In this document: piece after piece, positions 1-51,788 of the stretch
Numbering within the stretch: position 1 is the first letter of the stretch
Layout of the letters: every line of letters begins with the position of its first letter
Source: an uncultured virus (IMG/VR IMGVR_UViG_3300020046_001970)
Lineage: Duplodnaviria > Heunggongvirae > Uroviricota > Caudoviricetes
DNA: 64,000 nucleotides
Reading direction: 5' to 3' (one strand)
IMG/VR virus record: IMGVR_UViG_3300020046_001970
The notes under the pieces: generated by a model
The model's input: the letters and a program-made list of their open reading frames with translations, nothing else
Database searches by the model: none
Told to the model about the DNA's origin: nothing
Made by a program: the position numbers and the translations under genes

Positions 1-22
1 GGTTCGAGTCCAAGGTCCGGCG
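1..22 (+). tRNA. 3' end of a tRNA cut by the window edge (identity unknown)
   Basis: GG-TTCGAGT-CCAAG T-arm followed by acceptor strand GTCCGGC-G. Confidence 0.7.
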
Positions 23-31
23 CTTAATGGC

Positions 32-391
32 CTACCCAAATACTGGGTTGTGTAGCTCAGTGTGGCAATTAGCACACAACAACTGGCACTTCTTAGATTC
101 ACTTACTAAGGTGTCCCAGGTGTGATTTGAGCAGGCTCGTAAATCCAGTCCGAAACTCTTGGTGGCTGGGTCAATATGGTGAAACGATAAAACAGCGTAG
201 TTTTTACTGTATCCACACAACCGACACTTACCACCATGGGAGTTTACCAATCGAACCTTACGTGTTATACCGCGTTGTTGTTGGCATTCGTAGTTCTGGT
301 TCCTCCTGTTTGAGTCTTGGTTCCTACACTTGCTAGAACAGAATCTAGATTGCTTACCGGTTAGTTTGCCAGCACAAACGATACATGTCAT
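32..391 (-). CDS. HNH endonuclease-like protein with N-terminal Zn finger
   Basis: CxxC..CSxxC, CRLCGY, FHHIDP, LLCANCHTELH. Confidence 0.85.
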   Translation of the reverse strand: MTCIVCAGKLTGKQSRFCSSKCRNQDSNRRNQNYECQQQRGITRKVRLVNSHGGKCRLCGYSKNYAVLSFHHIDPATKSFGLDLRACSNHTWDTLVSESKKCQLLCANCHTELHNPVFG

Positions 392-428
392 GCCTCTAGT
401 GTACCGTAACTTGAGATTAAGTTCAACT

Positions 429-513
429 GGAATGAAAACCTATCGGGGATAGGCTTGGTTTTGAAAACCAAAGGAGCGAGAAATCGCCTGGGGGTCGGGA
501 CCTCTTCATTCCT
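429..513 (+). tRNA. tRNA-Ser(TGA), 8/4 fold
   Basis: GGAATGAA/TTCATTCC 8-bp acceptor, 6-bp D stem, TTGGT-TTTGAAA-ACCAA, long V arm, 4-bp T stem with GTCGGGA loop. Confidence 0.85.
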
Positions 514-518
514 CTCTT

Positions 519-602
519 GCGTGGGTGGCGAAACTGGCAGACGCAGTAGATTCAAAATCTACCACCCTTAGAAGTGTACGGGTTCAAGTCCCGTCCCACG
601 CA
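519..602 (+). tRNA. tRNA-Leu(CAA)
   Basis: canonical type II cloverleaf, GTAGA-TTCAAAA-TCTAC. Confidence 0.95.
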
Positions 603-615
603 CTGAGGTGACTTC

Positions 616-861
616 ATGGAGCCTGTAAAGAAGGTACACGGTATCGGGTACGCCTCTCAACCTGATCATCAATTCCGATGTGACGGTAAATGGGGACAGC
701 CTGCGTGGGCTGGGGTTAATCAGAGCATGGGGTCGGATGGTCGTATCCGAGATGGCTCAGGGGAGCCTCTTACTCCAGAGCGTGTGTATCTATCAGACGA
801 GGACGACCGGCTTTTCTCCTTTGATGAGTCACTCATCACTTGTGAGGCGTGTCGTGTCTAG
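616..861 (+). CDS. hypothetical protein
   Basis: GAGG RBS, fills an inter-tRNA space. Confidence 0.6.
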   Translation: MEPVKKVHGIGYASQPDHQFRCDGKWGQPAWAGVNQSMGSDGRIRDGSGEPLTPERVYLSDEDDRLFSFDESLITCEACRV

Positions 862-885
862 GTAAGTAGTGTTTGATTGTGTAAT

Positions 886-968
886 GCGAACGTGGTGGAA
901 TTGGCAGACACGCAGGACTAAGGATCCTGTGCCGTAAAGGTGTGAGAGTTCAAGTCTCTCCGTTCGCA
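886..968 (+). tRNA. tRNA-Leu(AAG)
   Basis: GCGAACG/CGTTCGC, CAGGA-CTAAGGA-TCCTG, long V arm, TTCAAGT loop. Confidence 0.92.
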
Positions 969-980
969 CTAGGGGTTTCA

Positions 981-1166
981 ATGAAGCTGATAGCTGCTAT
1001 GGTTTTGAGTGACGAAGGAAAACTGCTTCCATATACGTGCCAGAGTTCCATGTCTGCTTGTGAAGAGGAAGCAGCTGTAACTCTTCCTTGGCACAGGATG
1101 AAAGCACTCGGGGCTAAGGTGGTGCAAGTTGAAATCCGCACCTTAGACTCAACAGAAACCGAGTAA
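981..1166 (+). CDS. hypothetical protein
   Basis: AGGGG RBS before ATG 981; the longer track ORF overlaps the tRNA. Confidence 0.55.
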   Translation: MKLIAAMVLSDEGKLLPYTCQSSMSACEEEAAVTLPWHRMKALGAKVVQVEIRTLDSTETE

Positions 1167-1168
1167 TT

Positions 1169-1255
1169 GGGTTGGTAATCAGTTAGGAACTGAGCCTGTT
1201 TCGAAAACAGTGCAGGTCCCGAAAGGGGCCAGGGGTTCGAGTCCTCACCTTCCCG
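1169..1255 (+). tRNA. tRNA-Ser(CGA), 8/4 fold
   Basis: GGGTTGGT/ACCTTCCC (two U-U), TCAGTT-AGG-AACTGA, TTCGAAA loop, GGGG-TTCGAGT-CCTC. Confidence 0.8.
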
Positions 1256-1335
1256 CTGGTTGTCCGAGAACCTCATCTCGGAATTAGGCTCCGCCAGTAA
1301 GCCTATAGGGATAAGATCCTTGAAACCTGGCCCAT
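1256..1335 (+). ncRNA. structured inter-tRNA spacer RNA, copy 1 (three hairpins plus pseudoknot)
   Basis: TCCGAGA/TCTCGGA; TAGGCT/AGCCTA whose loop GCCAG is complementary to CTGGC at 1327-1331; ends GAAAC-CTGGC-CCA. Confidence 0.4.
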
Positions 1336-1420
1336 GGAAGGTGAATCGATCAGGGATCGGCGCGACTTGGAAAGTCGTTGGGGCTCGAAAGGGTCTGGAG
1401 GTCGGGACTTCCTCCTTCCG
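1336..1420 (+). tRNA. tRNA-Ser(GGA), 8/4 fold
   Basis: GGAAGGTG/CTCCTTCC, TCGATC-AGG-GATCGG, GCGAC-TTGGAAA-GTCGT, GGAG-GTCGGGA-CTTC. Confidence 0.85.
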
Positions 1421-2048
1421 CTTTAGACTTTACGCGCCTATCAGGCCTTCCTCGGCCTCTATTCAGTACTCCATATGTCGGAGTCAGTGAGTGGCAATTA
1501 GGACATAGGAGGCGTAAGTTCTGTTCCGAACTATTGCTCCAATCTCCGTCTATGTGGTCAACATGTAGCGGTACTCTTTTGGTGGTTGGATTCACCTTAG
1601 ACCAACTACACTCAGAGCACTTCGAACCGTACTTCTCGAAAAGGTAATGTCGTACACGGTACGAGACTGAGGCCCCTTTTATACTCCCTGAGACACTACC
1701 GTTCCTCCAAAGCGCAATGAACTCTCTGGACTTACCCTCCCAATGGGCGGGTATACACTTTTTGGAGCAGTACTGCCGGTCCTCTTTGAAGCATGTATTA
1801 CAAGTAGGGCACTTCTTCTCTTTAGTTCTACCCTTACCTTGGTCCTTGACTCCTCCCTTAGGTTTTAGTTGTCGACATAATTTGCAGTATGTCCAGTAAG
1901 ACCGAATGGGTACGTCACATACCTTGCATTTGTTCTTGAGCTTTATCTTAGGGCTTATTGAGTTGTTGTGTCTGTTGGCACAGCTTCTAGAGCAGAACTT
2001 GAGGTTACTCGAAAGTGAACCACATACGGGGCATACTATTTGACTCAT
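1350..2048 (-). CDS. HNH endonuclease with repeated Zn-finger motifs
   Basis: several CxxC/CSxxC, LHVDHIDGDWSNSSEQNLRLLCPNCH; 3' end runs antisense into tRNA-Ser(GGA). Confidence 0.9.
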   Translation of the reverse strand: MSQIVCPVCGSLSSNLKFCSRSCANRHNNSISPKIKLKNKCKVCDVPIRSYWTYCKLCRQLKPKGGVKDQGKGRTKEKKCPTCNTCFKEDRQYCSKKCIPAHWEGKSREFIALWRNGSVSGSIKGASVSYRVRHYLFEKYGSKCSECSWSKVNPTTKRVPLHVDHIDGDWSNSSEQNLRLLCPNCHSLTPTYGVLNRGRGRPDRRVKSKAEGGSPDLQTLSSPNDFPSRADP

Positions 2049-2108
2049 CCCCTACAGTGCGGTATAAGTTGAATCTCCAACCCCGCACCGCAGTATGTAA
2101 ATTTGATT

Positions 2109-2191
2109 GGGGAGAAAATCGGGCAGGGCCCGGACTTGTTTGCTGAACAAAGTGGCGGTAACACGCTGGGGATCAAGACCTCTTCTCTCCG
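2109..2191 (+). tRNA. tRNA-Ser(GCT), 8/4 fold
   Basis: GGGGAGAA/TTCTCTCC, TCGGGC-AGG-GCCCGG, TTGCTGA loop, GGGG-ATCAAGA-CCTC. Confidence 0.82.
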
Positions 2192-2418
2192 CTAGTGGTT
2201 GTGTTAGTTACGCTAGAGGAAGTCCATGAAGTCTTTTCTACGTAAGCGAGATCTGCTCGGTCAAGTTATGAGTGCTCACATCAGGCTCTCCAGGGCCATT
2301 GAGCTAGAGGTACGTCGTCGAACACCCGTCCCGCAGATCTCCGATGAGATGCTTGCCCAGGTTGAGGTCAACCGACAAAACGAGATTAAGTAGTGGGGGA
2401 TAGTGGTTGGTGTTCTCT

Positions 2419-2501
2419 GGTAGATGAATCAGTCGGGGACTGAACCGGTTTACTAAACCGAGGGACGGTAATACGTTGGGGTTCGAGCCCTCCATCTACC
2501 T
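2419..2501 (+). tRNA. tRNA-Ser(ACT), 8/4 fold
   Basis: GGTAGATG/CATCTACC, TCAGTC-GGG-GACTGA, TTACTAA loop, GGGG-TTCGAGC-CCTC. Confidence 0.85.
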
Positions 2502-2511
2502 CTTGTGTTAT

Positions 2512-2588
2512 GGTGACATGATGGAGCTAGTGAACCAGGCTGACTGTGAATCAGTCATCGACGGGAGCAAAACCCGTATGTCACCCCA
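2512..2588 (+). tRNA. tRNA-His(GTG)
   Basis: G-1:C73, GCTGA-CTGTGAA-TCAGT, atypical T loop AGCAAAA, encoded CCA. Confidence 0.88.
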
Positions 2589-2589
2589 T

Positions 2590-2662
2590 GCCCTTGTAGC
2601 CTAGTGGATCAGGCGACACTTTCCTAAAGTGTTTTACGTAGGTTCGAATCCTACCAAGGGTG
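2590..2662 (+). tRNA. tRNA-Arg(CCT)
   Basis: canonical cloverleaf, ACACT-TTCCTAA-AGTGT. Confidence 0.95.
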
Positions 2663-2688
2663 CTAAGTTAGCGGTGTAGTAACAGGCA

Positions 2689-3006
2689 ATGCTGCAATCT
2701 AATCCTGAAGAGCCTATCCCTGAAGAACCTAGTCGAGATGAGCCGGGGTCTCAGCTCCCCCTCACCAGAAGTGAGTGTCTACCCGATGGGTCCAACAGCA
2801 GTAGACCTTGCGGGTACGTCAAATGTAGGCACCACTTGAACAACTCGAAGCACTCCTGCTCCCTAGACCTAGCTGAGCTTGGGGGAATGACTTTAGACGA
2901 GGTAGGGCAGGTGATGGGGGTAACCCGAGAGCGTGTCCGCCAGATGGAGGTCGCTGCCCTTCGTAAGTTTCGACTTCGGGTAAATTGGGACCCCTCCGAT
3001 TTCTAG
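2689..3006 (+). CDS. sigma-70 region-4-like HTH protein with Cys/His motif
   Basis: MTLDEVGQVMGVTRERVRQMEVAALRK preceded by RPCGYVKCRHHL. Confidence 0.85.
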   Translation: MLQSNPEEPIPEEPSRDEPGSQLPLTRSECLPDGSNSSRPCGYVKCRHHLNNSKHSCSLDLAELGGMTLDEVGQVMGVTRERVRQMEVAALRKFRLRVNWDPSDF

Positions 3007-3207
3007 TTAAGCCTCTCGGTTGAAGTTTCGTAGGTTCAAGTGTAGGGCGTAGATTACCTACACATTATTCGGGTATGGTGGCTAATTGCCACAGAGTTCG
3101 CACTCACACTCAAGTTCAAACTTTGAGTGGGATGGGTAGGCATAGAAAGTCTAGTAAGAAGTACACTTAAGGGTAGGGTGAGAGTCACATATTCGGGTAT
3201 CGTCTAC

Positions 3208-3310
3208 GGGCACTTAGCTCAGATTCTCATATACGGTGGCGCCGCTTGTATGTGGGTGGTAGAGCAAGGGACGAAATCCCTGGGCGCTGGTTCGATCCCA
3301 GTAGTGTCCA
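3208..3310 (+). tRNA. atypical tRNA-Phe-like gene (hairpin in D loop, 5-nt anticodon loop)
   Basis: GGGCACT/AGTGTCC, GCTC/GAGC, AGGGA-CGAAA-TCCCT, GCTGG-TTCGATC-CCAGT. Confidence 0.65.
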
Positions 3311-3323
3311 CAAATGAAATTAA

Positions 3324-3394
3324 GCCCCTAAAGCATTATGGCGATGCACCGCACTTGTAATGCGGAGATGAGAGTTCGATTCTCTCTTGGGGCT
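3324..3394 (+). tRNA. tRNA-Thr(TGT)
   Basis: CCGCA-CTTGTAA-TGCGG, GAGAG-TTCGATT-CTCTC. Confidence 0.9.
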
Positions 3395-3586
3395 CTAGGT
3401 TGCGGAGGTTCGCGTGGCTAAAAAGAAGAAGCTTCAACCCAAGTTAACTCCGGAACCGCTTGATGTGTCTATGGGGTGTCATTCGGTCACTCAGTGTGAC
3501 CACTGCGGTCACGGAAAACATACGGTGGGTCGTTGCCCAGATGAGACTATGAACGGGTACTCGTGTCGGTGTAAGCTGTAAGACTT

Positions 3587-3657
3587 GCGGACGTAGCTCT
3601 AAGGCAGAGCAGAGGGTTTCCAACCCTAGGGAACGAGTTCGATTCTCGTCGTCCGCT
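3587..3657 (+). tRNA. tRNA-Gly(TCC)
   Basis: GCGGACG/CGTCCGC, TTTCCAA loop. Confidence 0.92.
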
Positions 3658-3681
3658 CTGGTGTATTCAACACCTGGAGAG

Positions 3682-4014
3682 ATGAAAATGAAGCTGAATC
3701 AGATTATCGCGGTTGAGAAGGGTGTTCGTGGTCGAGGAGTGGAGCGCCTCACTGGAGTGTACAAGACCCTCCAGCGACAGGACGTTTTTACTGGTCTTCA
3801 ACGTCGGTATACTCCGATGAACGATGACGTGGCAACTCCTCAAGGGGAGATGCTCCCTCCGGAAACCAAGAACATCCAGGAGGATGTTCACCTGCTTCTT
3901 CAGCAAGTGGCTGAGGCGTCGAGTGAGATCATCGACGTTACCTGGCAGCGGGACTTGACGAATTGTGTCGCAAAGGCGGATGTGGTTGTGGATGGGAACG
4001 TCCTGATCAGGTAG
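3682..4014 (+). CDS. conserved hypothetical protein (KLNQIIAVEKG family), probably C-terminally truncated
   Basis: GGAG RBS; KLNQIIAVEKGV...GEMLPPE...NCVAKADVVVDG resembles the N-terminal half of a bacterial/phage family (from recall). Confidence 0.65.
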   Translation: MKMKLNQIIAVEKGVRGRGVERLTGVYKTLQRQDVFTGLQRRYTPMNDDVATPQGEMLPPETKNIQEDVHLLLQQVAEASSEIIDVTWQRDLTNCVAKADVVVDGNVLIR

Positions 4015-4019
4015 GTTAA

Positions 4020-4161
4020 GCAGGAAGGACCTGCAAAAGTTTAAGCGCCTAGTTAGGCGTAGGTCTTCTCGACTCACAATTCGGTGGGTTGTGAAGTGGT
4101 GGAGGGTGGCCGGGAACGGTCGCCCCTACGGGGCTCAGGTAGACCCTGAGCCCCAATTTTT
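4020..4161 (+). ncRNA. five-hairpin structured element ending in a terminator-like hairpin
   Basis: GCAGG/CCTGC, GCGCCT/AGGCGT, TCACAA/TTGTGA, GGGTGGCCG/CGGTCGCCC, GGGGCTCAGG/CCTGAGCCCC then TTTTT. Confidence 0.45.
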
Positions 4162-4176
4162 CTCCTTGAGGTAGTT

Positions 4177-4455
4177 GTGTGGATTCGATTCTGGTACAAG
4201 GTAAACTGCTCATCTTCAAGGGATAACCCAGAGGAGGTGGACTACACCTGGTACACCATCAGGCCTTCTGACGCGACCCTAAAGGATACCGCAGAGGAGA
4301 ACGTCCCCTCCTGGTGTAGAGAGTCTGAGCGTGGTTACAAGTACGGGTACGATGACGTTGAGGCTCTACCTGACCTAGATAGAGCTAGACTTGTTGCCAG
4401 GTATACGAGGCAAAAGGCTTATGCGGAAGAGATGCTACGAGTCCTGGGACAATAG
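4177..4455 (+). CDS. hypothetical protein
   Basis: GAGG RBS; stop codon lies inside the 5' end of the next tRNA. Confidence 0.65.
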   Translation: MWIRFWYKVNCSSSRDNPEEVDYTWYTIRPSDATLKDTAEENVPSWCRESERGYKYGYDDVEALPDLDRARLVARYTRQKAYAEEMLRVLGQ

Positions 4456-4519
4456 ATCAATTGGTTAGATCCCCCGGCTCATAACCGGGCTCGTCTCGGT
4501 TCGAATCCGAGTTGTCCTA
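4446..4519 (+). tRNA. tRNA with CAT anticodon (Ile2 or elongator Met)
   Basis: GGGACAA/TTGTCCT, CCCGG-CTCATAA-CCGGG. Confidence 0.9.
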
Positions 4520-4535
4520 CGAGTGTGTTTACTTT

Positions 4536-4607
4536 GCGGGTGTAACTCAGTGGTAGAGTTCTTGCTTGCCAAGCAAGTTGTCGAGGGTTCGAATCCCTTC
4601 GCCCGCT
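4536..4607 (+). tRNA. tRNA-Gly(GCC)
   Basis: canonical, CTTGC-TTGCCAA-GCAAG. Confidence 0.95.
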
Positions 4608-4696
4608 CTAGTGTATCGACCATGCACTATAACATGAGTATAGGTTGGCAGTGTAACCTACATGTGAACCGAATCTAGATCGGAAACTGCCCCAAT
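4608..4696 (+). ncRNA. structured inter-tRNA spacer RNA, copy 2 (three hairpins plus pseudoknot)
   Basis: GTGTAT/ATGCAC; TAGGTT/AACCTA whose loop GGCAGT is complementary to ACTGCC at 4686-4691; CCGA/TCGG; ends GAAAC-TGCC-CCA. Confidence 0.4.
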
Positions 4697-4768
4697 GCGG
4701 GTGTAACTCAGTGGTAGAGTGCTGCCTTCCCAAGGCAGTTGTCGAGGGTTCGACCCCCTTCGCCCGCT
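4697..4768 (+). tRNA. tRNA-Gly(CCC)
   Basis: CTGCC-TTCCCAA-GGCAG; close paralogue of the Gly(GCC) gene. Confidence 0.95.
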
Positions 4769-4786
4769 CGAATGAAACAGGAACCC

Positions 4787-4981
4787 ATGAAGACACCAGA
4801 CCCTCAACGGTACGAAAAGTTTAAGTCCAGACTCGACTGGTGGTTCACCCTTTCGAGGCATGCTTCAATCATCATCGTGGTGCTAGGTACCCTATACATA
4901 GCTCACGCTTTGGCCGATGGCCGGTTGGAAGTGATCAGGCTTACGAGGGAAAATCAACAACTACGCGAAAAGTGTCACTGA
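4787..4981 (+). CDS. small membrane protein
   Basis: AGGA RBS, hydrophobic segment IIIVVLGTLYIAHALA. Confidence 0.55.
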   Translation: MKTPDPQRYEKFKSRLDWWFTLSRHASIIIVVLGTLYIAHALADGRLEVIRLTRENQQLREKCH

Positions 4982-4986
4982 TACCT

Positions 4987-5058
4987 GTCGAGATGGCTGA
5001 ATGGTAAAGCGTGGAGCTGCAACCTCCATTTTCATCGGTTCGATTCCGATTCTCGACT
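4987..5058 (+). tRNA. tRNA-Cys(GCA)
   Basis: GTCGAGA/TCTCGAC, TGGAG-CTGCAAC-CTCCA, U73. Confidence 0.93.
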
Positions 5059-5064
5059 CTCTTT

Positions 5065-5138
5065 GCCCTTGTGGTCTAACGGATTAAGGCACGACACTTC
5101 TAATGTCGAAGATGGGAGTTCGATTCTCTCCAAGGGTG
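5065..5138 (+). tRNA. tRNA-Arg(TCT)
   Basis: CGACA-CTTCTAA-TGTCG. Confidence 0.93.
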
Positions 5139-5160
5139 CTAGTTGGTTTCTTTTATGTTT

Positions 5161-5236
5161 ACCCTTGTAGCTCAACAGACAGAGCAGGTGGCTTCGAACC
5201 ACAAGGTTGTAGGTGCAATTCCTACCAAGGGTGCCA
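5161..5236 (+). tRNA. tRNA-Arg(TCG)
   Basis: ACCCTTG/CAAGGGT, CTTCGAA loop, encoded CCA. Confidence 0.9.
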
Positions 5237-5259
5237 AGTGTTGTTATCAGGTCTTGGAG

Positions 5260-5550
5260 TTAGCCGTTAACGGAGCTTGACCGGACTTCACGTTGGCCCT
5301 CCGGAATTTTATGCGTGCGTAGACGATGACAAACAGCGCAACGCACCTCACACTTAGAGATCTCCTCTCGAATTACCTGTTCTGGACGGCGCTCGCTGAG
5401 CATTATACTTACGGTTTGAATCTTCACGCCTCGTACATGGTCAAAATCCATCGCGCATGGGTGGTATTGCCTACCGCAGTCTACACAAGGTTGACTTTTC
5501 GCTGCATTGACGACATCCCTTAGTCGCTTCACCGTAGCTCTGTTGGACAA
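5260..5550 (-). CDS. HNH endonuclease-like protein
   Basis: PCVDCG..MDFDHVRG..EISKCEVRCAVCHRLRT. Confidence 0.85.
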   Translation of the reverse strand: MSNRATVKRLRDVVNAAKSQPCVDCGRQYHPCAMDFDHVRGVKIQTVSIMLSERRPEQVIREEISKCEVRCAVCHRLRTHKIPEGQREVRSSSVNG

Positions 5551-5627
5551 ATTAGCACGAGTAGTCGAAGTATAAGTGAAATTTCGATTCCAGGAGCTAA
5601 GGTTCTACTTGTCAACGGGCGGTTAGT

Positions 5628-6029
5628 ATGGCCTACTCCTATGACCGTCGTGTTGCTGCTGGTCGTGTGACCTTTAAGCCGTTTAGTCGAATAGACCCCA
5701 ACGGTGGTATGGGCTCATCTAAGGTCCTACTGGATGGCGTTGTTGTGGCTTACATCGAACGCGATGTGGTTATGGAGTCTGTTGGAGTGATGCAGAAGAA
5801 GTACACGGTTAGAGCGTACGTTCCTACCTTGCAGGGGCCAATAGGTTACTTACCAGGGTCAGATCTGTTCGAGGATAAAGAGTACCCAGACCTCTCGGAA
5901 GTGAAGCGACTCCTTACTGCGTTCCTCAGTAAGATTCCTGAGGTGGTCCCAGAGATCTACACCCTCTACTGGGCCAAGAAGATTAACTCCACTGAGTGGA
6001 AAGACCGTGTCCTGGATGCCTGTAAATGA
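5628..6029 (+). CDS. hypothetical protein
   Basis: 133-aa ORF coupled to the next gene. Confidence 0.7.
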   Translation: MAYSYDRRVAAGRVTFKPFSRIDPNGGMGSSKVLLDGVVVAYIERDVVMESVGVMQKKYTVRAYVPTLQGPIGYLPGSDLFEDKEYPDLSEVKRLLTAFLSKIPEVVPEIYTLYWAKKINSTEWKDRVLDACK

Positions 6030-9261: not shown

Positions 9262-9352
9262 GGGACTGTAGCCTAACGGTTAAGGCACCCGGTTTATAAC
9301 CGGTTTAGCGTCTGATAAGCGCGAGATGGGGGTTCAAATCCCTCCAGTCCTA
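9262..9352 (+). tRNA. tRNA-Ile(TAT) with long variable arm
   Basis: GGGACTG/CAGTCCT, CCGG-TTTATAA-CCGG, extended V region, TTCAAAT loop. Confidence 0.85.
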
Positions 9353-9436
9353 CTAAGGTGCAGGAATCCCCAAAGGGTTCCTCAGAAAGGTAAGCCGTAA
9401 ACTTACCAGGTTGGAAGTAACCAAGCACCTCGATCC

Positions 9437-48428: not shown

Positions 48429-51400
48429 ATGGCTCAAGATAAGAAACAGGTTGGGATTGCCAACCTCATCCGTAGTGCTGGGCACAGATCAAAGTCAACA
48501 GATAAGAACAGCAAAGCGGGGCTTCTCACGACCACCAAAAGTGGTCGTGAGATTCGTATTTTCGACATTCTGACCTACATTGAAGCCCCTTGGGGGCTCA
48601 ATATGACGTTGTACCCAGTACAACGGTTCATCGTCAAGCTCTACTACAACCTACCCCTAGATGAGGTCTTACCTGAGAACGTGAATCGTCAGATTCGGGT
48701 CTCAGACATGTTCAACAGCAAGATACTCTACACCTTCACGGAGAAGGAGTACCTCCACTACCTATTCAACGAGGGTCGCTGCAACATCAAAGAGCAGGAC
48801 CACATGCGGAGGCAACTTACACTTCCGATAGGTAGAAGAGCCGGGAAATGCAAGTCCCCTAAATCGTTAGTGATTACGTCAAATGGTCTCCTAGAGCTTT
48901 CAGAGTTAGGGGATGTTAATGGGCCTGAGTGGCAACCTCTTGCTATCACGGTCGCACAAGCTGGTGGACGTCAAGCGCAATCCTCGCACTTCTACAATAA
49001 CGGAGTAAGTCAAACCCGTAAGATTAAGCTACGCTGTGGTATTGAGGACGAAAGCACCCCCAACCATAGAGTAATGGTGCTGAGTAAAGATGGAGTTGTT
49101 GATTGGAAGTGCATGGGAGATGTCCAAGTAGGGGACTATGTAGCGGTCAATAGACAAACGGATCTTTGGCCGACTGCTATGTTTCCGGTACCTAAGGCTA
49201 AGTCGTGGACTCTCCCAGACGTAGTTGACGAGGACTTTGGATTATTTCTAGGGTACTTGGTAGGAGATGGTACTTGGGGGCAGGCTTCGTACTTAGAGCT
49301 TACCGGTTTGGAAGCTCAGGTTCGTAGATTTGCTCAAATCGCATCAAAAGTTTTAGGGCACCCTGGACGTTGCTACCCAGCAATAGGATCTGAAAATGGC
49401 TGGCGTTGGAGGTTTGATGGTGTGGGCGTAGGGGTTAACGGACCAGCTAGAGAAGTTAGAGGTGTCTTGCATGACCTTGGATTTAACCTCGACGTAGAAC
49501 GAGACAAGAAACGAGTCCCATTCTCTATTCGAAGATCCCCTAAGTCCGTTGTTTGTGCTTTCCTTCGTGGGCTATTTGAGACGGATGGATGTTCGGAAGA
49601 CTCTGGTCGGATTATTACTCTTTCTTCGTCTAGCTTTGAACTCGCCCGTGAAGTCCAACTGTTGTTGTTGAATTTAGGGGTGGTTACGCATATTGGATCG
49701 AAGTGGAACGCTAAGTACAAAAAGCACTACGCCATCCTTTCAATAAGGGGGGCGGAGTCTCGGGCAATTTTCTGCGAGCAGATCGGGTTTGACTCTGACA
49801 GAAAACAAGGACCCCTACTAGAGAAGGTAGCTCAGCAAAAGGTAAGGGCTGACAACAAGTCAGACACCGAAGCTATACCCAACCAATTTGATTGGTTACA
49901 GTCACTACTAGGCCTTATCCCTAAGCGGAATGCTTCTGCTGGCAAACCTGGGTGGGGGCGAAGCCTTCTACGTCAAGAGTTAGGTAATGCCATCAAACCA
50001 GGGTCCTCTGAGGACCTTAGTTACCCCAGATTACGTAAGGCTCTTGTTGTAGCGAGGAACTTAGGCGCTGAGGGTCCAGTTGTAGACCACTTCGAAGAGT
50101 TGCTGCGGCTCAATTACTTTTACGACCCAATTGTCTCGATAGAGGAGGGGGAAGCTCAGGTTTACGACTTGACCGTGCCAGACGGGGAGGCGTTTGTCGC
50201 CAATGGGATGGTCAACCACAATACGACTCTCTCAGCAATTTTCGCTAGTTACGAGCTGTACCGTCTCCTTTCTCTACATGATCCGCAGGAGTACTACGGA
50301 CTCCCGAACGGAAACCGCATACAAATCATTAGCGTTGCTACCGACAAGGACCAAGCAGGGCTGTTGTTCAATGACGTGACCGCGCACATGGCTAAGTGCG
50401 AGTTCTTCAAGCCGTACATTGCCAACAACACGCTATCCTACGTTCAGTTGAGAACCCCTAGTGACATAGAAAAGTACGGACCAACCAACAGGACGACAGA
50501 CGGCAAGTTTACGTCCTTCAACGGCAAGGCTTCAATCCGCGTAACCTTCAAAGCTAGTATCTCAAAGGGCCTTCGTGGAGCTGGTAACGTAGTCATCATC
50601 CTAGACGAGATGGCTCACTTCCAGGCTAATGGGTCTAGCTCTGCGAAGGACATCTACGACGCAATCACTCCCTCCGCAGCTGCCTTCTCTCAGAAGGACT
50701 TGAACACTGGGTTGCCGATCAATGGTTCAGAGACCGAATCTGAGGCTAGGATCATCGGTATCTCCTCCCCCTTGAATAAGGCAGGTAAGTTCTACGAGCT
50801 GTTTCACCTTGGCATGAGTCGAGGGGAAGGTTCGGAGAACATGCTTGTCATTCAAGCTCCGACTTGGGAGGTGAACCCTACCGTACCTACGAGCTACTAT
50901 AGGGCAAAGTACCATGAGGACCCTACGGTTTTCATGACAGAGCATGGGGCTCTATTCTCTGACCGTGTACGAGGTTGGATCGAGCGTGAGCAGGATCTTA
51001 CGTCCTGTATACGCTCAGACCTACGCCCAAGGTCTTACGGGCCGGTCCGCTACCCGCATCAGATGGGTCTTGACGTGGGTATGGTAGGGGACGGGACGAC
51101 TGTAGCCATTACTCACTGCGAGGGTCAAAACGTCATTCTAGACTACCACGAGGCGTGGTACGCAGGAGTGTCGTGGAAGGAATCGAACCCTCACCTCACT
51201 GCCCCTCTAGTAGACTACGCCAAGATGCTAGAGACGGTAGAGCGGTTGGACTTTGATGAGATTGCTAATTGGATCGTCACGTTATCCAAGAAATTCTACC
51301 TGACGTCTGGGATCTTCGATAGGTGGAACGGGCTACCCTTAGAGCAAGCGCTGCACAAAAAGGGGCTCAAGCAATTCAAGAGTGAGTTCTTCACCCGAGA

Positions 51401-51788
51401 CGACCGAAGTCGAATGTTTCAGGCCATGAAGCTCATGTTGTTCGATCATCGTATTGTCCTGTACGATTGGCCGATAACAGCGGATGGGAAGGCTAAGCAC
51501 AGCCCCCTGATTGAAGAGCTGTTGAGTCTGCAAGCCACTCAGATGGCTAAGAACCAGATCCTAGTGGAGGCCCCCAAGATCCTTGGGGCGCACGATGACG
51601 TTTCAGATGCGTTGGTACGTGCCGTGTGGCTCTCGTTAGAGCAAGTCTCCAACCAAAAGTCTACGGCTCGACCTGAGGGAAGTAGTAGCCTCGCTCGTGG
51701 GTCGTCATTACAAGGGTACCAAGTACGCAGGGCCCGTAACCATGGGGTGTTGCTAGATCGTAACGTGCGAGGGTTACGTCGGCGATAA
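48429..51788 (+). CDS. terL: terminase large subunit with intein
   Basis: Walker A GRRAGK|TT, IILDEMAHF, GISSP, GLDVG, HDDVSDA. Confidence 0.93.
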   Translation: MAQDKKQVGIANLIRSAGHRSKSTDKNSKAGLLTTTKSGREIRIFDILTYIEAPWGLNMTLYPVQRFIVKLYYNLPLDEVLPENVNRQIRVSDMFNSKILYTFTEKEYLHYLFNEGRCNIKEQDHMRRQLTLPIGRRAGKCKSPKSLVITSNGLLELSELGDVNGPEWQPLAITVAQAGGRQAQSSHFYNNGVSQTRKIKLRCGIEDESTPNHRVMVLSKDGVVDWKCMGDVQVGDYVAVNRQTDLWPTAMFPVPKAKSWTLPDVVDEDFGLFLGYLVGDGTWGQASYLELTGLEAQVRRFAQIASKVLGHPGRCYPAIGSENGWRWRFDGVGVGVNGPAREVRGVLHDLGFNLDVERDKKRVPFSIRRSPKSVVCAFLRGLFETDGCSEDSGRIITLSSSSFELAREVQLLLLNLGVVTHIGSKWNAKYKKHYAILSIRGAESRAIFCEQIGFDSDRKQGPLLEKVAQQKVRADNKSDTEAIPNQFDWLQSLLGLIPKRNASAGKPGWGRSLLRQELGNAIKPGSSEDLSYPRLRKALVVARNLGAEGPVVDHFEELLRLNYFYDPIVSIEEGEAQVYDLTVPDGEAFVANGMVNHNTTLSAIFASYELYRLLSLHDPQEYYGLPNGNRIQIISVATDKDQAGLLFNDVTAHMAKCEFFKPYIANNTLSYVQLRTPSDIEKYGPTNRTTDGKFTSFNGKASIRVTFKASISKGLRGAGNVVIILDEMAHFQANGSSSAKDIYDAITPSAAAFSQKDLNTGLPINGSETESEARIIGISSPLNKAGKFYELFHLGMSRGEGSENMLVIQAPTWEVNPTVPTSYYRAKYHEDPTVFMTEHGALFSDRVRGWIEREQDLTSCIRSDLRPRSYGPVRYPHQMGLDVGMVGDGTTVAITHCEGQNVILDYHEAWYAGVSWKESNPHLTAPLVDYAKMLETVERLDFDEIANWIVTLSKKFYLTSGIFDRWNGLPLEQALHKKGLKQFKSEFFTRDDRSRMFQAMKLMLFDHRIVLYDWPITADGKAKHSPLIEELLSLQATQMAKNQILVEAPKILGAHDDVSDALVRAVWLSLEQVSNQKSTARPEGSSSLARGSSLQGYQVRRARNHGVLLDRNVRGLRRR
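48849..50222 (+). mobile_element. LAGLIDADG intein (458 aa) in the terminase Walker A
   Basis: starts Cys, TPNH, FLGYLVGDG, FLRGLFETDG, VYDLTV..NGMVNHN|T. Confidence 0.95.

What the first reader, a model, noticed from the sequence alone, without database searches (positions are those of the whole stretch)
429..2501. A whole serine isoacceptor set built on the non-canonical 8/4, tRNA-Sec-like scaffold
Seen: five tRNA-Ser genes (TGA, CGA, GGA, GCT, ACT) share an 8-bp acceptor stem, an AA linker, a 6-bp D stem with a 3-nt RGG loop, a long V arm and a 4-bp T stem. Three lack the TTC T-loop start (GTCGGGA twice, ATCAAGA). Two have U73 rather than the G73 usual for Ser. The sequences diverge while the pairing is kept, which implies selection on structure. 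Known: 8/4 tRNA-Ser has been reported in some bacteria and phages (Mukai et al. 2017), so the fold is not new. Inference: a set of five with no canonical tRNA-Ser in the window suggests a parallel serine decoding system, perhaps resistant to host tRNA nucleases or needing little modification.
Basis: partly seen in the sequence, partly recalled or inferred. Interest (0 to 1): 0.7.

Follow-up and report, generated by a model that had tools for sequence, protein, structure and literature searches.

The report
Phage serine tRNAs with 8/4 fold
A giant phage carries five serine tRNA genes that all use an unusual but already described "8/4" cloverleaf, a design that turns out to be common and mostly unannotated in large phages of Proteobacteria.

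Summary
Window 429-2501 holds five tRNA-Ser genes (UGA, CGA, GGA, GCU, ACU). Each has an 8-bp acceptor stem, an AA linker, a 6-bp D stem with a 3-nt RGG loop, a long V arm and a 4-bp T stem. The 7/5 refolding fails: across 45 distinct relatives the eighth acceptor pair forms in 45 of 45, with 25 double-sided changes, while the alternative fifth T-stem pair forms in 7 of 45. The nearest whole record (G001, 380 kb) has exactly these five. It has no convincing canonical tRNA-Ser and no SerRS, EF-Tu, CCA-adding enzyme or deaminase domain.

The architecture is the "(8/4, delta20) tRNA-Ser" of Mukai et al. 2017, already reported from phages. Sets of three or four such isoacceptors occur in related jumbo phages, in 17 further IMG/VR contigs, and unannotated in five cultured phages checked by fold. 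They were found in 0 of 151 and 1 of 151 sampled proteobacterial genomes.

So this is a new member of a known kind. These are ordinary Ser decoders that depend on host enzymes, not a parallel system. The ACU isoacceptor is specific to this lineage. The non-U54 T loops recur across the family. Nuclease evasion remains untested.

The parts
429..513 (+). tRNA-Ser(UGA), 85 nt, 8/4 fold. Acceptor GGAATGAA/TTCATTCC (8 of 8 pairs), AA linker, D stem CCTATC/GATAGG with loop GGG, V region of 18 nt with a GAAA-capped stem, T stem GGGG/CCTC, T loop GTCGGGA, discriminator U. No CCA encoded.
   Evidence: (91.8 bits). Rfam tRNA-Sec model 34 bits, below the gathering score of 47. Not called by ARAGORN.
1169..1255 (+). 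tRNA-Ser(CGA), 87 nt, 8/4 fold. Acceptor GGGTTGGT/ACCTTCCC with two U.U mismatches (6 of 8 pairs), AA linker, D stem TCAGTT/AACTGA with loop AGG, 6-bp V stem with GAAA loop, T stem GGGG/CCTC, T loop TTCGAGT, discriminator G.
   Evidence: ARAGORN draws it as 8/4 itself. (81.7 bits). Compensatory changes against G003 in the D stem and the anticodon stem.
1336..1420 (+). tRNA-Ser(GGA), 85 nt, 8/4 fold. Acceptor GGAAGGTG/CTCCTTCC (7 of 8 pairs, one U.U), AA linker, D stem TCGATC/GATCGG with loop AGG, T stem GGAG/CTTC, T loop GTCGGGA, discriminator G. Its 3' part is overlapped on the other strand by the end of an HNH-like ORF (1350-2048).
   Evidence: (89.2 bits). Not called by ARAGORN or by Rfam at E<=1.
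2109..2191 (+). tRNA-Ser(GCU), 83 nt, 8/4 fold. Acceptor GGGGAGAA/TTCTCTCC (8 of 8 pairs), AA linker, D stem TCGGGC/GCCCGG with loop AGG, T stem GGGG/CCTC, T loop ATCAAGA, discriminator G. The anticodon loop TTGCTGA has G at position 37, which is unusual.
   Evidence: (85.8 bits). The minimum-free-energy fold equals the 8/4 cloverleaf. Not called by ARAGORN or by Rfam at E<=1.
2419..2501 (+). tRNA-Ser(ACU), 83 nt, 8/4 fold. Acceptor GGTAGATG/CATCTACC (8 of 8 pairs), AA linker, D stem TCAGTC/GACTGA with loop GGG, T stem GGGG/CCTC, T loop TTCGAGC, discriminator U. Its V arm resembles that of the GCU gene, so it is probably a duplicate of the GCU type (inference).
   Evidence: (89.1 bits). It is the only ACU among the 45 distinct 8/4 sequences. 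Also present in G003 and in a contig of run X19.

Best explanation
These are five working serine tRNA genes of a jumbo phage. All belong to the known (8/4, delta20) tRNA-Ser class.

Inferred mechanism:
1. They are transcribed within the phage's large tRNA array and trimmed by host RNase P and 3' processing enzymes.
2. The host enzyme adds CCA, since none is encoded.
3. Host SerRS charges them. SerRS reads the long V arm, the acceptor stem and G73/U73, not the anticodon.
4. Host EF-Tu delivers them, because 8+4 keeps the normal 12-bp acceptor/T branch.

Together the five anticodons read all six Ser codons. ACU adds capacity for AGU.

The scaffold is a heritable trait of a tRNA-Ser lineage that circulates among large phages of Proteobacteria and is rare in the bacterial genomes sampled. 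Why phages keep it is not shown. Inheritance within that lineage is enough to account for it here.
For: Fold:
- Pair 8:88 forms in 45 of 45 sequences, with pair types AU 19, GC 16, UA 8, CG 1, GU 1.
- The 7/5 pair 72:88 forms in 7 of 45.
- The whole 8/4 structure is 95.0% paired against 68.4% in shuffles, and 22 of 23 pairs show double-sided changes.
- U55, C56 and the two D-loop Gs are invariant or at least 90% conserved. This fits a normal elbow.

Identity: all 45 carry Ser anticodons (TGA 12, GCT 14, CGA 10, GGA 8, ACT 1). N73 is G in 31, U in 13 and A in 1.

Selection: between the window and G003 there are compensatory changes A-T to C-G and T-A to A-T in Ser(CGA) and T-A to C-G in Ser(GCU), plus A-T to G.T in Ser(UGA).

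Completeness:
- G001 holds exactly five hits.
- The only other ARAGORN 'Ser' call has no Rfam support.
- All six Ser codons are used, each at 12-22% of Ser codons.

Host dependence: G001 has no PF00587, PF01743, PF00009 or PF00383.

Interchangeability with canonical tRNA-Ser: relative G005 has 8/4 CGA, GGA and GCU plus a canonical 7/5 Ser(UGA) side by side.

Published function: allo-tRNAs of 8/4 and 9/3 shape inserted Ser efficiently in E. coli (PMC5389517, abstract and section 13; PMC7609411, passages).

Weak expression hint: contigs of relatives in two libraries recorded as RNA cover Ser(UGA), Ser(GCU), Ser(ACU) and the 5' half of Ser(CGA). The tool warns that DNA can be present in such libraries.
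Against: - No direct evidence here of transcription, processing, charging or ribosomal use.
- Two acceptor stems carry U.U mismatches.
- Ser(GCU) has G37.
- Two T loops (GTCGGGA) can also fold into a 6-bp stem with a tetraloop at nearly equal energy, within 0.3-0.5 kcal/mol.
- The host is unknown, so compatibility with its SerRS is inferred only.
- The 45-sequence set was collected with a pattern and a model built from the window's own genes, and was chosen for a perfect 6-bp D stem. The D-stem pairing figures are therefore circular, and the set leans slightly towards 8/4.
- G001 is rated 79% complete by CheckV, although it has terminal repeats. A missing gene cannot be fully excluded.
Confidence: 0.8

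Rival explanations
1. Counter-defence scaffold. The 8/4 body has a remodelled D arm, position 8 paired rather than free, and often no U54. The idea is that it lets a complete phage Ser-tRNA set escape host effectors that disable canonical tRNA-Ser, while SerRS identity is kept. This adds a purpose to the best explanation rather than replacing it.
For: - Only Ser among the phage's tRNAs uses the odd scaffold. All other ARAGORN-drawn tRNAs in the window are 7/5.
- 8/4 Ser was found in 0 of 151 and 1 of 151 sampled proteobacterial genomes, yet in many phages, including phages of Caulobacter, Ruegeria and Stenotrophomonas.
- A type I-A retron HNH nuclease depletes all four E. coli tRNA-Ser and also cleaves the canonical T5 phage tRNA-Ser. 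Differences between phage and host tRNAs cluster around the D loop (PMC12475279, passages).
- The MenT3 toxin prefers tRNA-Ser (PMC11541572, title and start of abstract only).
Against: - No test of cleavage or resistance exists for any 8/4 tRNA.
- Some phages mix 8/4 and canonical Ser tRNAs (G005, L092, L102, L108). That is not expected if canonical ones were useless.
- The host and its defence systems are unknown.
- The rarity in bacteria comes from samples searched with strict filters.
Confidence: 0.2
2. Non-translational RNAs. The genes would be decaying pseudogenes, decoys or regulatory tRNA-like RNAs, as was proposed for allo-tRNA(UAU).
For: - U.U mismatches in two acceptor stems, non-canonical T loops in three, and G37 in Ser(GCU).
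- Mukai et al. found that many allo-tRNA(UAU) species were inactive in E. coli (PMC5389517, section 16 passages).
Against: - 45 of 45 relatives keep Ser anticodons.
- T33 is invariant and A37 is at least 90% conserved in the alignment.
- Compensatory substitutions occur in all four helices and between near-identical phages.
- The five anticodons exactly cover the six Ser codons, and the phage has no other Ser tRNA.
Confidence: 0.07
3. Misread canonical 7/5 tRNA-Ser.
For: ARAGORN draws Ser(ACU) with a 7-bp stem and a 5-position T stem that contains a mismatch.
Against: - The 49:65 pair is mismatched in 5 of 5 window genes and in 38 of 45 relatives. The 8:66 pair forms in 45 of 45, with five pair types.
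- The 7/5 constraint costs 1.2-3.8 kcal/mol in 5 of 5.
Confidence: 0.01
4. Selenocysteine-type or recoding tRNAs.
For: Two of the five score best against Rfam tRNA-Sec (34 and 32 bits). They also have the long D stem typical of tRNA-Sec.
Against: - Scores are below the gathering score of 47.
- The acceptor/T branch is 12 bp, not 13.
- There is no UCA anticodon.
- G001 has no EF-Tu/SelB-type GTPase.
- All anticodons are Ser sense anticodons.
Confidence: 0.01

Closest known systems
(8/4, delta20) tRNA-Ser and (8/4) allo-tRNA-Ser of Mukai et al., Nucleic Acids Res 2017 (PMC5389517)
   Same: - 8-bp acceptor and 4-bp T stem, 12 bp in all.
- AA-type linker.
- 6-bp D stem with a 3-nt xGG loop.
- Long V arm.
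- A GGGG/CCTC T stem in many members.
- Ser anticodons.
- Found in phage tRNA clusters.
Rows of their supplementary table show the same layout, for example a soil UGA entry with an AA linker and an AGG loop.
   Different: - All 24 Ser-labelled 8/4 rows I saw in their table have G73. Here 2 of 5 have U73.
- Their Ser rows carry GCU, UGA, GGA, CGA and AGA anticodons. ACU is not among them.
- Many of their sequences end in CCA. The window's five do not.
- I could not see their Figure S2 (phage clusters), so how many isoacceptors per phage they showed is unknown to me.
allo-tRNAs with non-Ser anticodons (Acidobacteria, Clostridia, Proteobacteria; same paper)
   Same: The same 8/4 body and Ser identity elements. 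Similar genes turned up here in Actinomycetes and Chloroflexota MAGs.
   Different: Those carry missense or nonsense anticodons and are linked to toxin-antitoxin loci. The window's five all carry Ser anticodons and sit in a phage tRNA array.
Bacterial tRNA-Sec (Rfam RF01852)
   Same: 8-bp acceptor stem, long D stem with a small loop, long V arm, and charging by SerRS.
   Different: tRNA-Sec has a 13-bp branch (8/5) and a UCA anticodon, and it needs SelA and SelB. The window genes have 12 bp and sense anticodons and score below the family threshold. An 8/5, UCA-anticodon tRNA-Sec-like gene seen in a sampled bacterium shows the contrast.
Canonical phage-encoded class II tRNA-Ser (for example phage T5; 7/5 Ser genes in IMG/VR contigs)
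   Same: Phage-borne Ser isoacceptors within tRNA arrays. They can sit beside 8/4 genes (G005).
   Different: They have a 7/5 branch, a free position 8, a 3-4-bp D stem with a large GG-containing loop, and a TTC T loop.

Membership tests
(8/4) tRNA-Ser, delta20 type (Mukai et al. 2017) | 12-bp acceptor/T branch split into 8 + 4 | tested here: met
   The 8th pair is present in 5 of 5 window genes and in 45 of 45 relatives. The 7/5 alternative pair is absent in 5 of 5 and in 38 of 45.
(8/4) tRNA-Ser, delta20 type (Mukai et al. 2017) | Long D stem with a 3-nt loop (nucleotide 20 missing) | tested here: met
   6 of 6 D-stem pairs with loop GGG or AGG in 5 of 5. All six pairs show double-sided changes across relatives. 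Those relatives were chosen for this stem, so the pairing percentage is circular.
(8/4) tRNA-Ser, delta20 type (Mukai et al. 2017) | Long variable arm | tested here: met
   V regions of 16-20 nt with 4-6-bp stems in all five.
(8/4) tRNA-Ser, delta20 type (Mukai et al. 2017) | Discriminator G73 or U73 | tested here: met
   G in 3 and U in 2. The paper names G73 or U73 as compatible with SerRS (section 13).
(8/4) tRNA-Ser, delta20 type (Mukai et al. 2017) | Serine anticodon | tested here: met
   UGA, CGA, GGA, GCU and ACU.
(8/4) tRNA-Ser, delta20 type (Mukai et al. 2017) | Serylation by SerRS and use in translation | not testable with these tools
   Only indirect evidence: published activity of related allo-tRNAs in E. 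coli (PMC5389517, PMC7609411) and RNA-library contigs of relatives.
tRNA-Sec (RF01852) | Score at or above the Rfam gathering score | tested here: not met
   34.0 and 32.2 bits against 47 for two genes. The other three get no hit at E<=1.
tRNA-Sec (RF01852) | 13-bp branch (8/5 or 9/4) and UCA anticodon | tested here: not met
   The T stem has 4 pairs, the fifth position is mismatched in 5 of 5, and no gene has a UCA anticodon.
Canonical bacterial class II tRNA-Ser (RF00005 type, 7/5) | 7-bp acceptor, free position 8, 5-bp T stem | tested here: not met
   No RF00005 hit is listed for any of the five at E<=1. For two of them a lower-scoring overlapping hit of the same clan may have been hidden.

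The most novel reading that the evidence does not exclude
The 8/4 serine scaffold is a phage counter-defence device. Large phages of Proteobacteria would bring a full set of Ser tRNAs whose D arm, position 8 and often T loop are rebuilt, so that host effectors that disable every canonical tRNA-Ser no longer recognise them, while host SerRS still charges them. Examples of such effectors are the retron I-A HNH nuclease and MenT-type nucleotidyltransferases. The coupled change of T-loop positions 54 and 60 would belong to the same redesign.
Probability: 0.2. Interest if true: 0.75.

Novelty: new member of a known kind. Interest (0 to 1): 0.3.

Why it matters
The fold itself is published, so the find does not change what is known about tRNA architecture. 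It still yields three practical points.

1. **Annotation gap.** Standard annotation misses these genes. ARAGORN finds 2 of 5 here. The 18 model hits in five cultured-phage GenBank records lie where no tRNA is annotated. Phage tRNA repertoires, and codon-usage arguments built on them, therefore undercount serine.

2. **A phage-typical trait.** The scaffold was common in phages and rare in the bacterial genomes sampled. That makes the open question of why phages keep it worth asking, now that defence systems aimed at tRNA-Ser are known.

3. **Testable systems.** Cultured, harmless systems exist in which expression, charging and nuclease sensitivity can be tested directly. Examples are Caulobacter phage BL57 on strain CB15 and Roseobacter phage DSS3P8 on Ruegeria pomeroyi.

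Tried and rejected
- **Named relatives by DNA or marker protein.** Megablast of window 1-6000 against GenBank phages gave no match. tblastn of the 1205-aa marker protein against the same set also gave none.

- **Genome-contig scan wasted.** I set the gap in the pattern too long (45-65 where about 36-50 was needed). The single scan could therefore only find tRNAs of 89 nt or more. It gave 38 stretches, of which 8 were 8/4-like. Most of those carried non-Ser anticodons, in Actinomycetes, Chloroflexota and one Pseudomonadota MAG. It says nothing about how common 8/4 Ser is in bacteria, so I used two class-level samples instead.

- **Sixth Ser gene rejected.** ARAGORN's 'tRNA-Ser(aga)' in G001 (138287-138366) has no Rfam hit at E<=0.1 and no model hit.

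- **(8/4) tRNA-His of Mukai's type not found.** The His-like gene at 2513-2585 is of the G-1:C73 type instead.

- **Host identity not established.** The RNR protein's best named hits, to Bradyrhizobium and Geobacillus phages at 44-45%, are too distant to use.

- **Earlier notes of this scan.** There were none for this genome.

- **Literature after 2017.** Three searches found nothing on phage 8/4 tRNA-Ser beyond Mukai et al. and reviews of it. Subscription journals are not covered.

- **Runs with no cover.** RNA and DNA runs gave no cover over 1401-2093. No conclusion is drawn from that.
Full report
**What is there.** The window lies in a jumbo phage. The nearest record held, G001, is a 379,936-bp IMG/VR virus contig with direct terminal repeats. 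It is identical to the window over 429-2502. Elsewhere it differs by a few replaced segments. ARAGORN finds 15 tRNAs in the window and 41 plus a tmRNA in G001, nearly all within a region of about 26 kb.

Within 429-2501 there are five genes with Ser anticodons: UGA 429-513, CGA 1169-1255, GGA 1336-1420, GCU 2109-2191 and ACU 2419-2501. Two canonical tRNA-Leu genes, small ORFs and an HNH-like ORF on the other strand lie between them.

**The fold.** I parsed each gene from its two ends, so no alignment was involved.
- All five have an AA linker after nucleotide 8.
- All five have a 6-bp D stem closed by GGG or AGG, and a 4-bp T stem.
- All five have a Watson-Crick eighth acceptor pair.
- Acceptor pairing is 8, 6, 7, 8 and 8 of 8. 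Ser(CGA) carries two U.U mismatches and Ser(GGA) one.
- The pair that a 7/5 fold would need instead (49:65) is a mismatch in 5 of 5.
- Folding constrained to 8/4 is 1.2-3.8 kcal/mol better than folding constrained to 7/5 in 5 of 5. These are rough values, since non-standard pairs had to be enforced.
- The other ARAGORN-called tRNAs of the window (Leu, Arg, Thr, Gly, Met, Cys, Val and a 92-nt UAU species) are drawn as ordinary 7/5 cloverleaves. The odd body is specific to Ser.

**Standard tools versus a custom model.**
- ARAGORN of the 5.
- Rfam at E<=1 places two on the tRNA-Sec model, at 34.0 and 32.2 bits against a gathering score of 47. It places three on nothing.
- I built a covariance model from the five with the 8/4 structure (R1). 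It recovers them at 82-92 bits. The next best hit in G001 plus the window (444 kb) is 19 bits.
- G001 therefore has exactly five such genes. Its only other ARAGORN 'Ser' call (aga, 138287-138366) has neither an Rfam hit nor a model hit. I take it as false.

**Relatives and covariation.** A 1205-aa protein of the window finds four other large viral contigs. Three of them carry model hits.
- G003 (98% protein identity) has the same five, including ACU.
- G004 (65%) has 8/4 UGA, CGA, GCU and GGA.
- G005 (43%) has 8/4 CGA, GGA and GCU next to a canonical 7/5 Ser(UGA).

Between the window and G003 there are already compensatory changes. In Ser(CGA), A-T becomes C-G in the D stem and T-A becomes A-T in the anticodon stem. 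In Ser(GCU), T-A becomes C-G. In Ser(UGA), A-T becomes G.T in the acceptor stem.

The model found 118 matches in those loci. From all 141 rows (A2 plus A3) I kept the distinct sequences of 80 nt or more that have a perfect 6-bp D stem starting at nucleotide 11 and a 3-4-nt loop. This criterion does not look at the acceptor or T arms. It left 45 sequences: the window's 5, 8 from G003-G005, and 32 from 17 further contigs. The dropped rows were duplicates, canonical 7/5 tRNAs, non-Ser tRNAs, and 8/4-like genes with shorter D stems.

On a MAFFT alignment of the 45 (A4):
- The 8/4 structure is 95.0% paired, against 68.4% in shuffles and 37-52% when the partners are slid.
- 22 of 23 pairs show double-sided changes.
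- The deciding pair 8:88 forms in 45 of 45, as AU 19, GC 16, UA 8, CG 1 and GU 1, with 25 double-sided changes.
- The 7/5 pair 72:88 forms in 7 of 45.

Caveats: the set was gathered with a pattern and a model derived from the window, and the D-stem pairing percentage is circular by selection. Neither caveat can create the contrast of 45 of 45 against 7 of 45 at one position.

**Family traits.**
- All 45 have Ser anticodons.
- N73 is G in 31, U in 13 and A in 1, so U73 is a normal variant.
- Sixteen of 45 lack T at the first T-loop position. Examples are GTCGGGA, ATCAAGA and ATCGAGA. Of these, 15 of 16 end in A, against 2 of 29 loops that start with T (counted).
- The second and third T-loop positions (U55, C56) and the two D-loop Gs are invariant or at least 90% conserved. 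This fits a normal D/T elbow in all variants.
- The three 'non-TTC' loops of the window are thus a recurrent subtype and not decay.
- For GTCGGGA, a slipped 6-bp stem with a tetraloop is energetically almost equal. It cannot be excluded without probing.
- ACU is the only anticodon confined to this lineage: the window and G001, G003, and a contig in run X19.
- Its V arm resembles that of the GCU gene, so I infer a duplication of that type.
- An unmodified A34 would read AGU. Whether it is deaminated cannot be told, and G001 has no deaminase domain.

**What the phage lacks.** G001 has no class II synthetase core of the SerRS type (PF00587) and no CCA-adding enzyme (PF01743). It has no EF-Tu/SelB-type GTPase (PF00009) and no cytidine/adenosine deaminase domain (PF00383). 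The same searches found each family in 10 to 14 of the 14 control genomes.
- None of the five genes encodes CCA.
- The tRNAs must therefore rely on host enzymes. 'Parallel decoding system' is not the right description.
- The phage uses all six Ser codons: TCT 22%, TCC 18%, AGT 18%, AGC 16%, TCG 14% and TCA 12% of Ser codons in 289 ORFs of 150 aa or more. The five anticodons cover them.
- With 41 tRNAs called in the genome, a full Ser set is simply part of a near-complete complement.

**Known or new.** Mukai et al. (PMC5389517) describe exactly this body. I read the abstract, sections 5 and 13, passages of section 16, and the supplementary table rows labelled tRNASer.
- They name '(8/4) tRNA-Ser', including a 'delta20' form with a 3-nt D loop.
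- They found it in bacteriophages, Proteobacteria and rumen Clostridia.
- They found it in tRNA clusters of alpha-proteobacterial phages, together with (8/4) tRNA-His.
- Their table lists GCU, UGA, GGA, CGA and AGA members. All those I saw have G73.
- Their Figure S2 is a picture that I could not read.
- A 2020 review (PMC7609411, passages) repeats the bacterial distribution and the activity in E. coli and does not mention phages.
- Three further literature searches found no later work on phage 8/4 tRNA-Ser in the library searched.

**Spread found here.**
- blastn with one 8/4 gene hit nine GenBank phage records, every time at a place with no annotated feature.
- I folded the hits in five of those records. 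Stenotrophomonas phage DLP_6 has four 8/4 Ser genes, Caulobacter phage BL57 three, Xanthomonas phage BUDD four, Roseobacter phage DSS3P8 four and Rhodobacter phage RcXuper three.
- One DSS3P8 hit and the DLP_6 UGA hit did not parse cleanly as 8/4 in my end-anchored check.
- None of the 18 hits has a tRNA annotated at its place. One in DLP_6 overlaps the end of an annotated CDS.
- The seven DLP_6 and BL57 genes are each followed by CCA.
- The four other records (Ruegeria V10 and RpAliso, Phaeobacter MD18, Xanthomonas X1) were seen by blastn only.

**Rarity in bacteria.**
- The first sample was 151 genomes of the class of a Sphingomonadaceae genome. It gave 29 weak hits in 27 genomes, the best at 37.7 bits.
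- I parsed 27 of those 29 hits. All are canonical tRNAs, apart from one 8/5 gene with a UCA anticodon that looks like tRNA-Sec.
- The two unparsed hits are a 74-nt hit in the unpublished genome G051 and a second, 73-nt hit in G141.
- The second sample was 151 genomes of the class of an Alcaligenaceae genome. It gave one 8/4 Ser(UGA)-like gene (46.6 bits) and one canonical hit.
- These are samples, scored with strict filters. The correct wording is 'not found in those searched'.

**Expression.** Contigs from two libraries recorded as metatranscriptomes (X17, X19) and one guessed RNA run (X15) come from relatives, with several differences. They cover Ser(UGA), Ser(GCU), Ser(ACU) and the 5' half of Ser(CGA). 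One contig joins GCU directly to ACU and lacks the small ORF between them. A G-to-A difference at 491 turns a G.U pair of the 4-bp T stem into A-U. The tool warns that DNA may be present in such libraries and that contigs show neither ends nor strand. This is a weak hint only.

**Why phages keep the scaffold.** This is not shown.
- The minimal reading is inheritance within a phage tRNA-Ser lineage. SerRS ignores the anticodon and the D arm, and the 12-bp branch length that EF-Tu and RNase P need is preserved. This last point rests on established knowledge and on Mukai et al.
- The bolder reading is escape from effectors directed at tRNA-Ser. A type I-A retron HNH nuclease depletes all four E. 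coli tRNA-Ser and also cuts the canonical T5 tRNA-Ser, and differences between phage and host tRNAs cluster at the D loop (PMC12475279, passages).
- That reading would explain why the whole Ser family, and only Ser, is rebuilt. Against it, some phages mix 8/4 and canonical Ser genes, and nothing has been tested. I put it at about 0.2.

**Verdict.** The thing is a new member of a published class, with a lineage-specific ACU isoacceptor. Interest is modest. The useful by-products are the evidence that such sets are widespread and unannotated, and the list of cultured systems in which the open question can be tested.

Noticed in passing
window 2513-2585 (CCA follows to 2589): A weak tRNA hit (RF00005, 30.8 bits) that ARAGORN misses. 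By eye it is a tRNA-His(GUG) with an encoded G-1 paired to C73 and an encoded CCA. Its D loop lacks GG and its T loop is AGCAAAA, without TTC. The anticodon stem has two possible registers, and only one of them gives GUG.
   Followed up: partly
window 9262-9353: A 92-nt class II tRNA (long V arm, 7/5 fold, A73) with a UAU anticodon, scoring 61 bits on RF00005. A 92-nt homologue is annotated tRNA-Ile-TAT in Stenotrophomonas phage DLP_6, and part of the V arm is conserved between the two. Which amino acid a long-armed, A73, UAU tRNA carries is unclear.
   Followed up: partly
L010 15593-15664 (G001 135593-135664, upstream of the window): A tRNA-Val(GAC)-like gene with a 7/5 branch but a 6-bp D stem and a 4-nt loop. 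It scores 33 bits on the tRNA-Sec model and is missed by ARAGORN. The long D arm is therefore not wholly confined to Ser in this phage.
   Followed up: partly
L011 12619-12976 (G001); matching part of the window: G001 carries a tmRNA: RF00023 at 83 bits, with an ARAGORN tag peptide ending in ALAAA. It is not called in the window, because the window holds a run of N there.
   Followed up: partly
window 32-391 (-) and 1350-2048 (-): Two HNH-endonuclease-like ORFs on the opposite strand inside the tRNA array. Their Pfam HNH scores are 16.3 and 21.2 bits, at or below the cut-offs. The end of the second overlaps the Ser(GGA) gene. They are likely homing endonucleases.
   Followed up: partly
window 886-969 and 2419-2501: Two tRNAs with A at the wobble position, Leu(AAG) and Ser(ACU). 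CTT is the phage's most used Leu codon (24%), and AGT slightly exceeds AGC. G001 has no deaminase domain.
   Followed up: partly
alignment A4 (45 8/4 tRNA-Ser from the window and L028-L117): T-loop positions 54 and 60 are coupled. Loops that do not start with T end in A in 15 of 16 cases. Loops that start with T end in A in 2 of 29. From memory, A54 with A60 also marks eukaryotic initiator tRNAs. I did not check that here.
   Followed up: no
L173, L160, L191, L196, L162, L184 (Actinomycetes, Chloroflexota, Solirubrobacterales and Conexibacter MAGs): 8/4 tRNAs with the same GGAAGGTG-AA-6-bp-AGG body but with non-Ser anticodon loops, so allo-tRNA-like. They sit in bacterial chromosomes.
   Followed up: no
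window 48429-51788: A 1119-aa ORF with an intein splicing domain and a LAGLIDADG domain. The host protein of the intein was not identified.
   Followed up: no
window about 4008-4310 versus G001 146751-147444: The window and the nearest record differ here by a replaced segment. G001 has about 390 more bases at this point. Elsewhere the two are identical at nearly all of the points sampled.
   Followed up: no
L011 2374-2435 (G001 142374-142435, just upstream of the window): A partial tRNA match (46 bits, model positions 5-66) with no acceptor stem that I could find by eye. Possibly a tRNA remnant.
   Followed up: no
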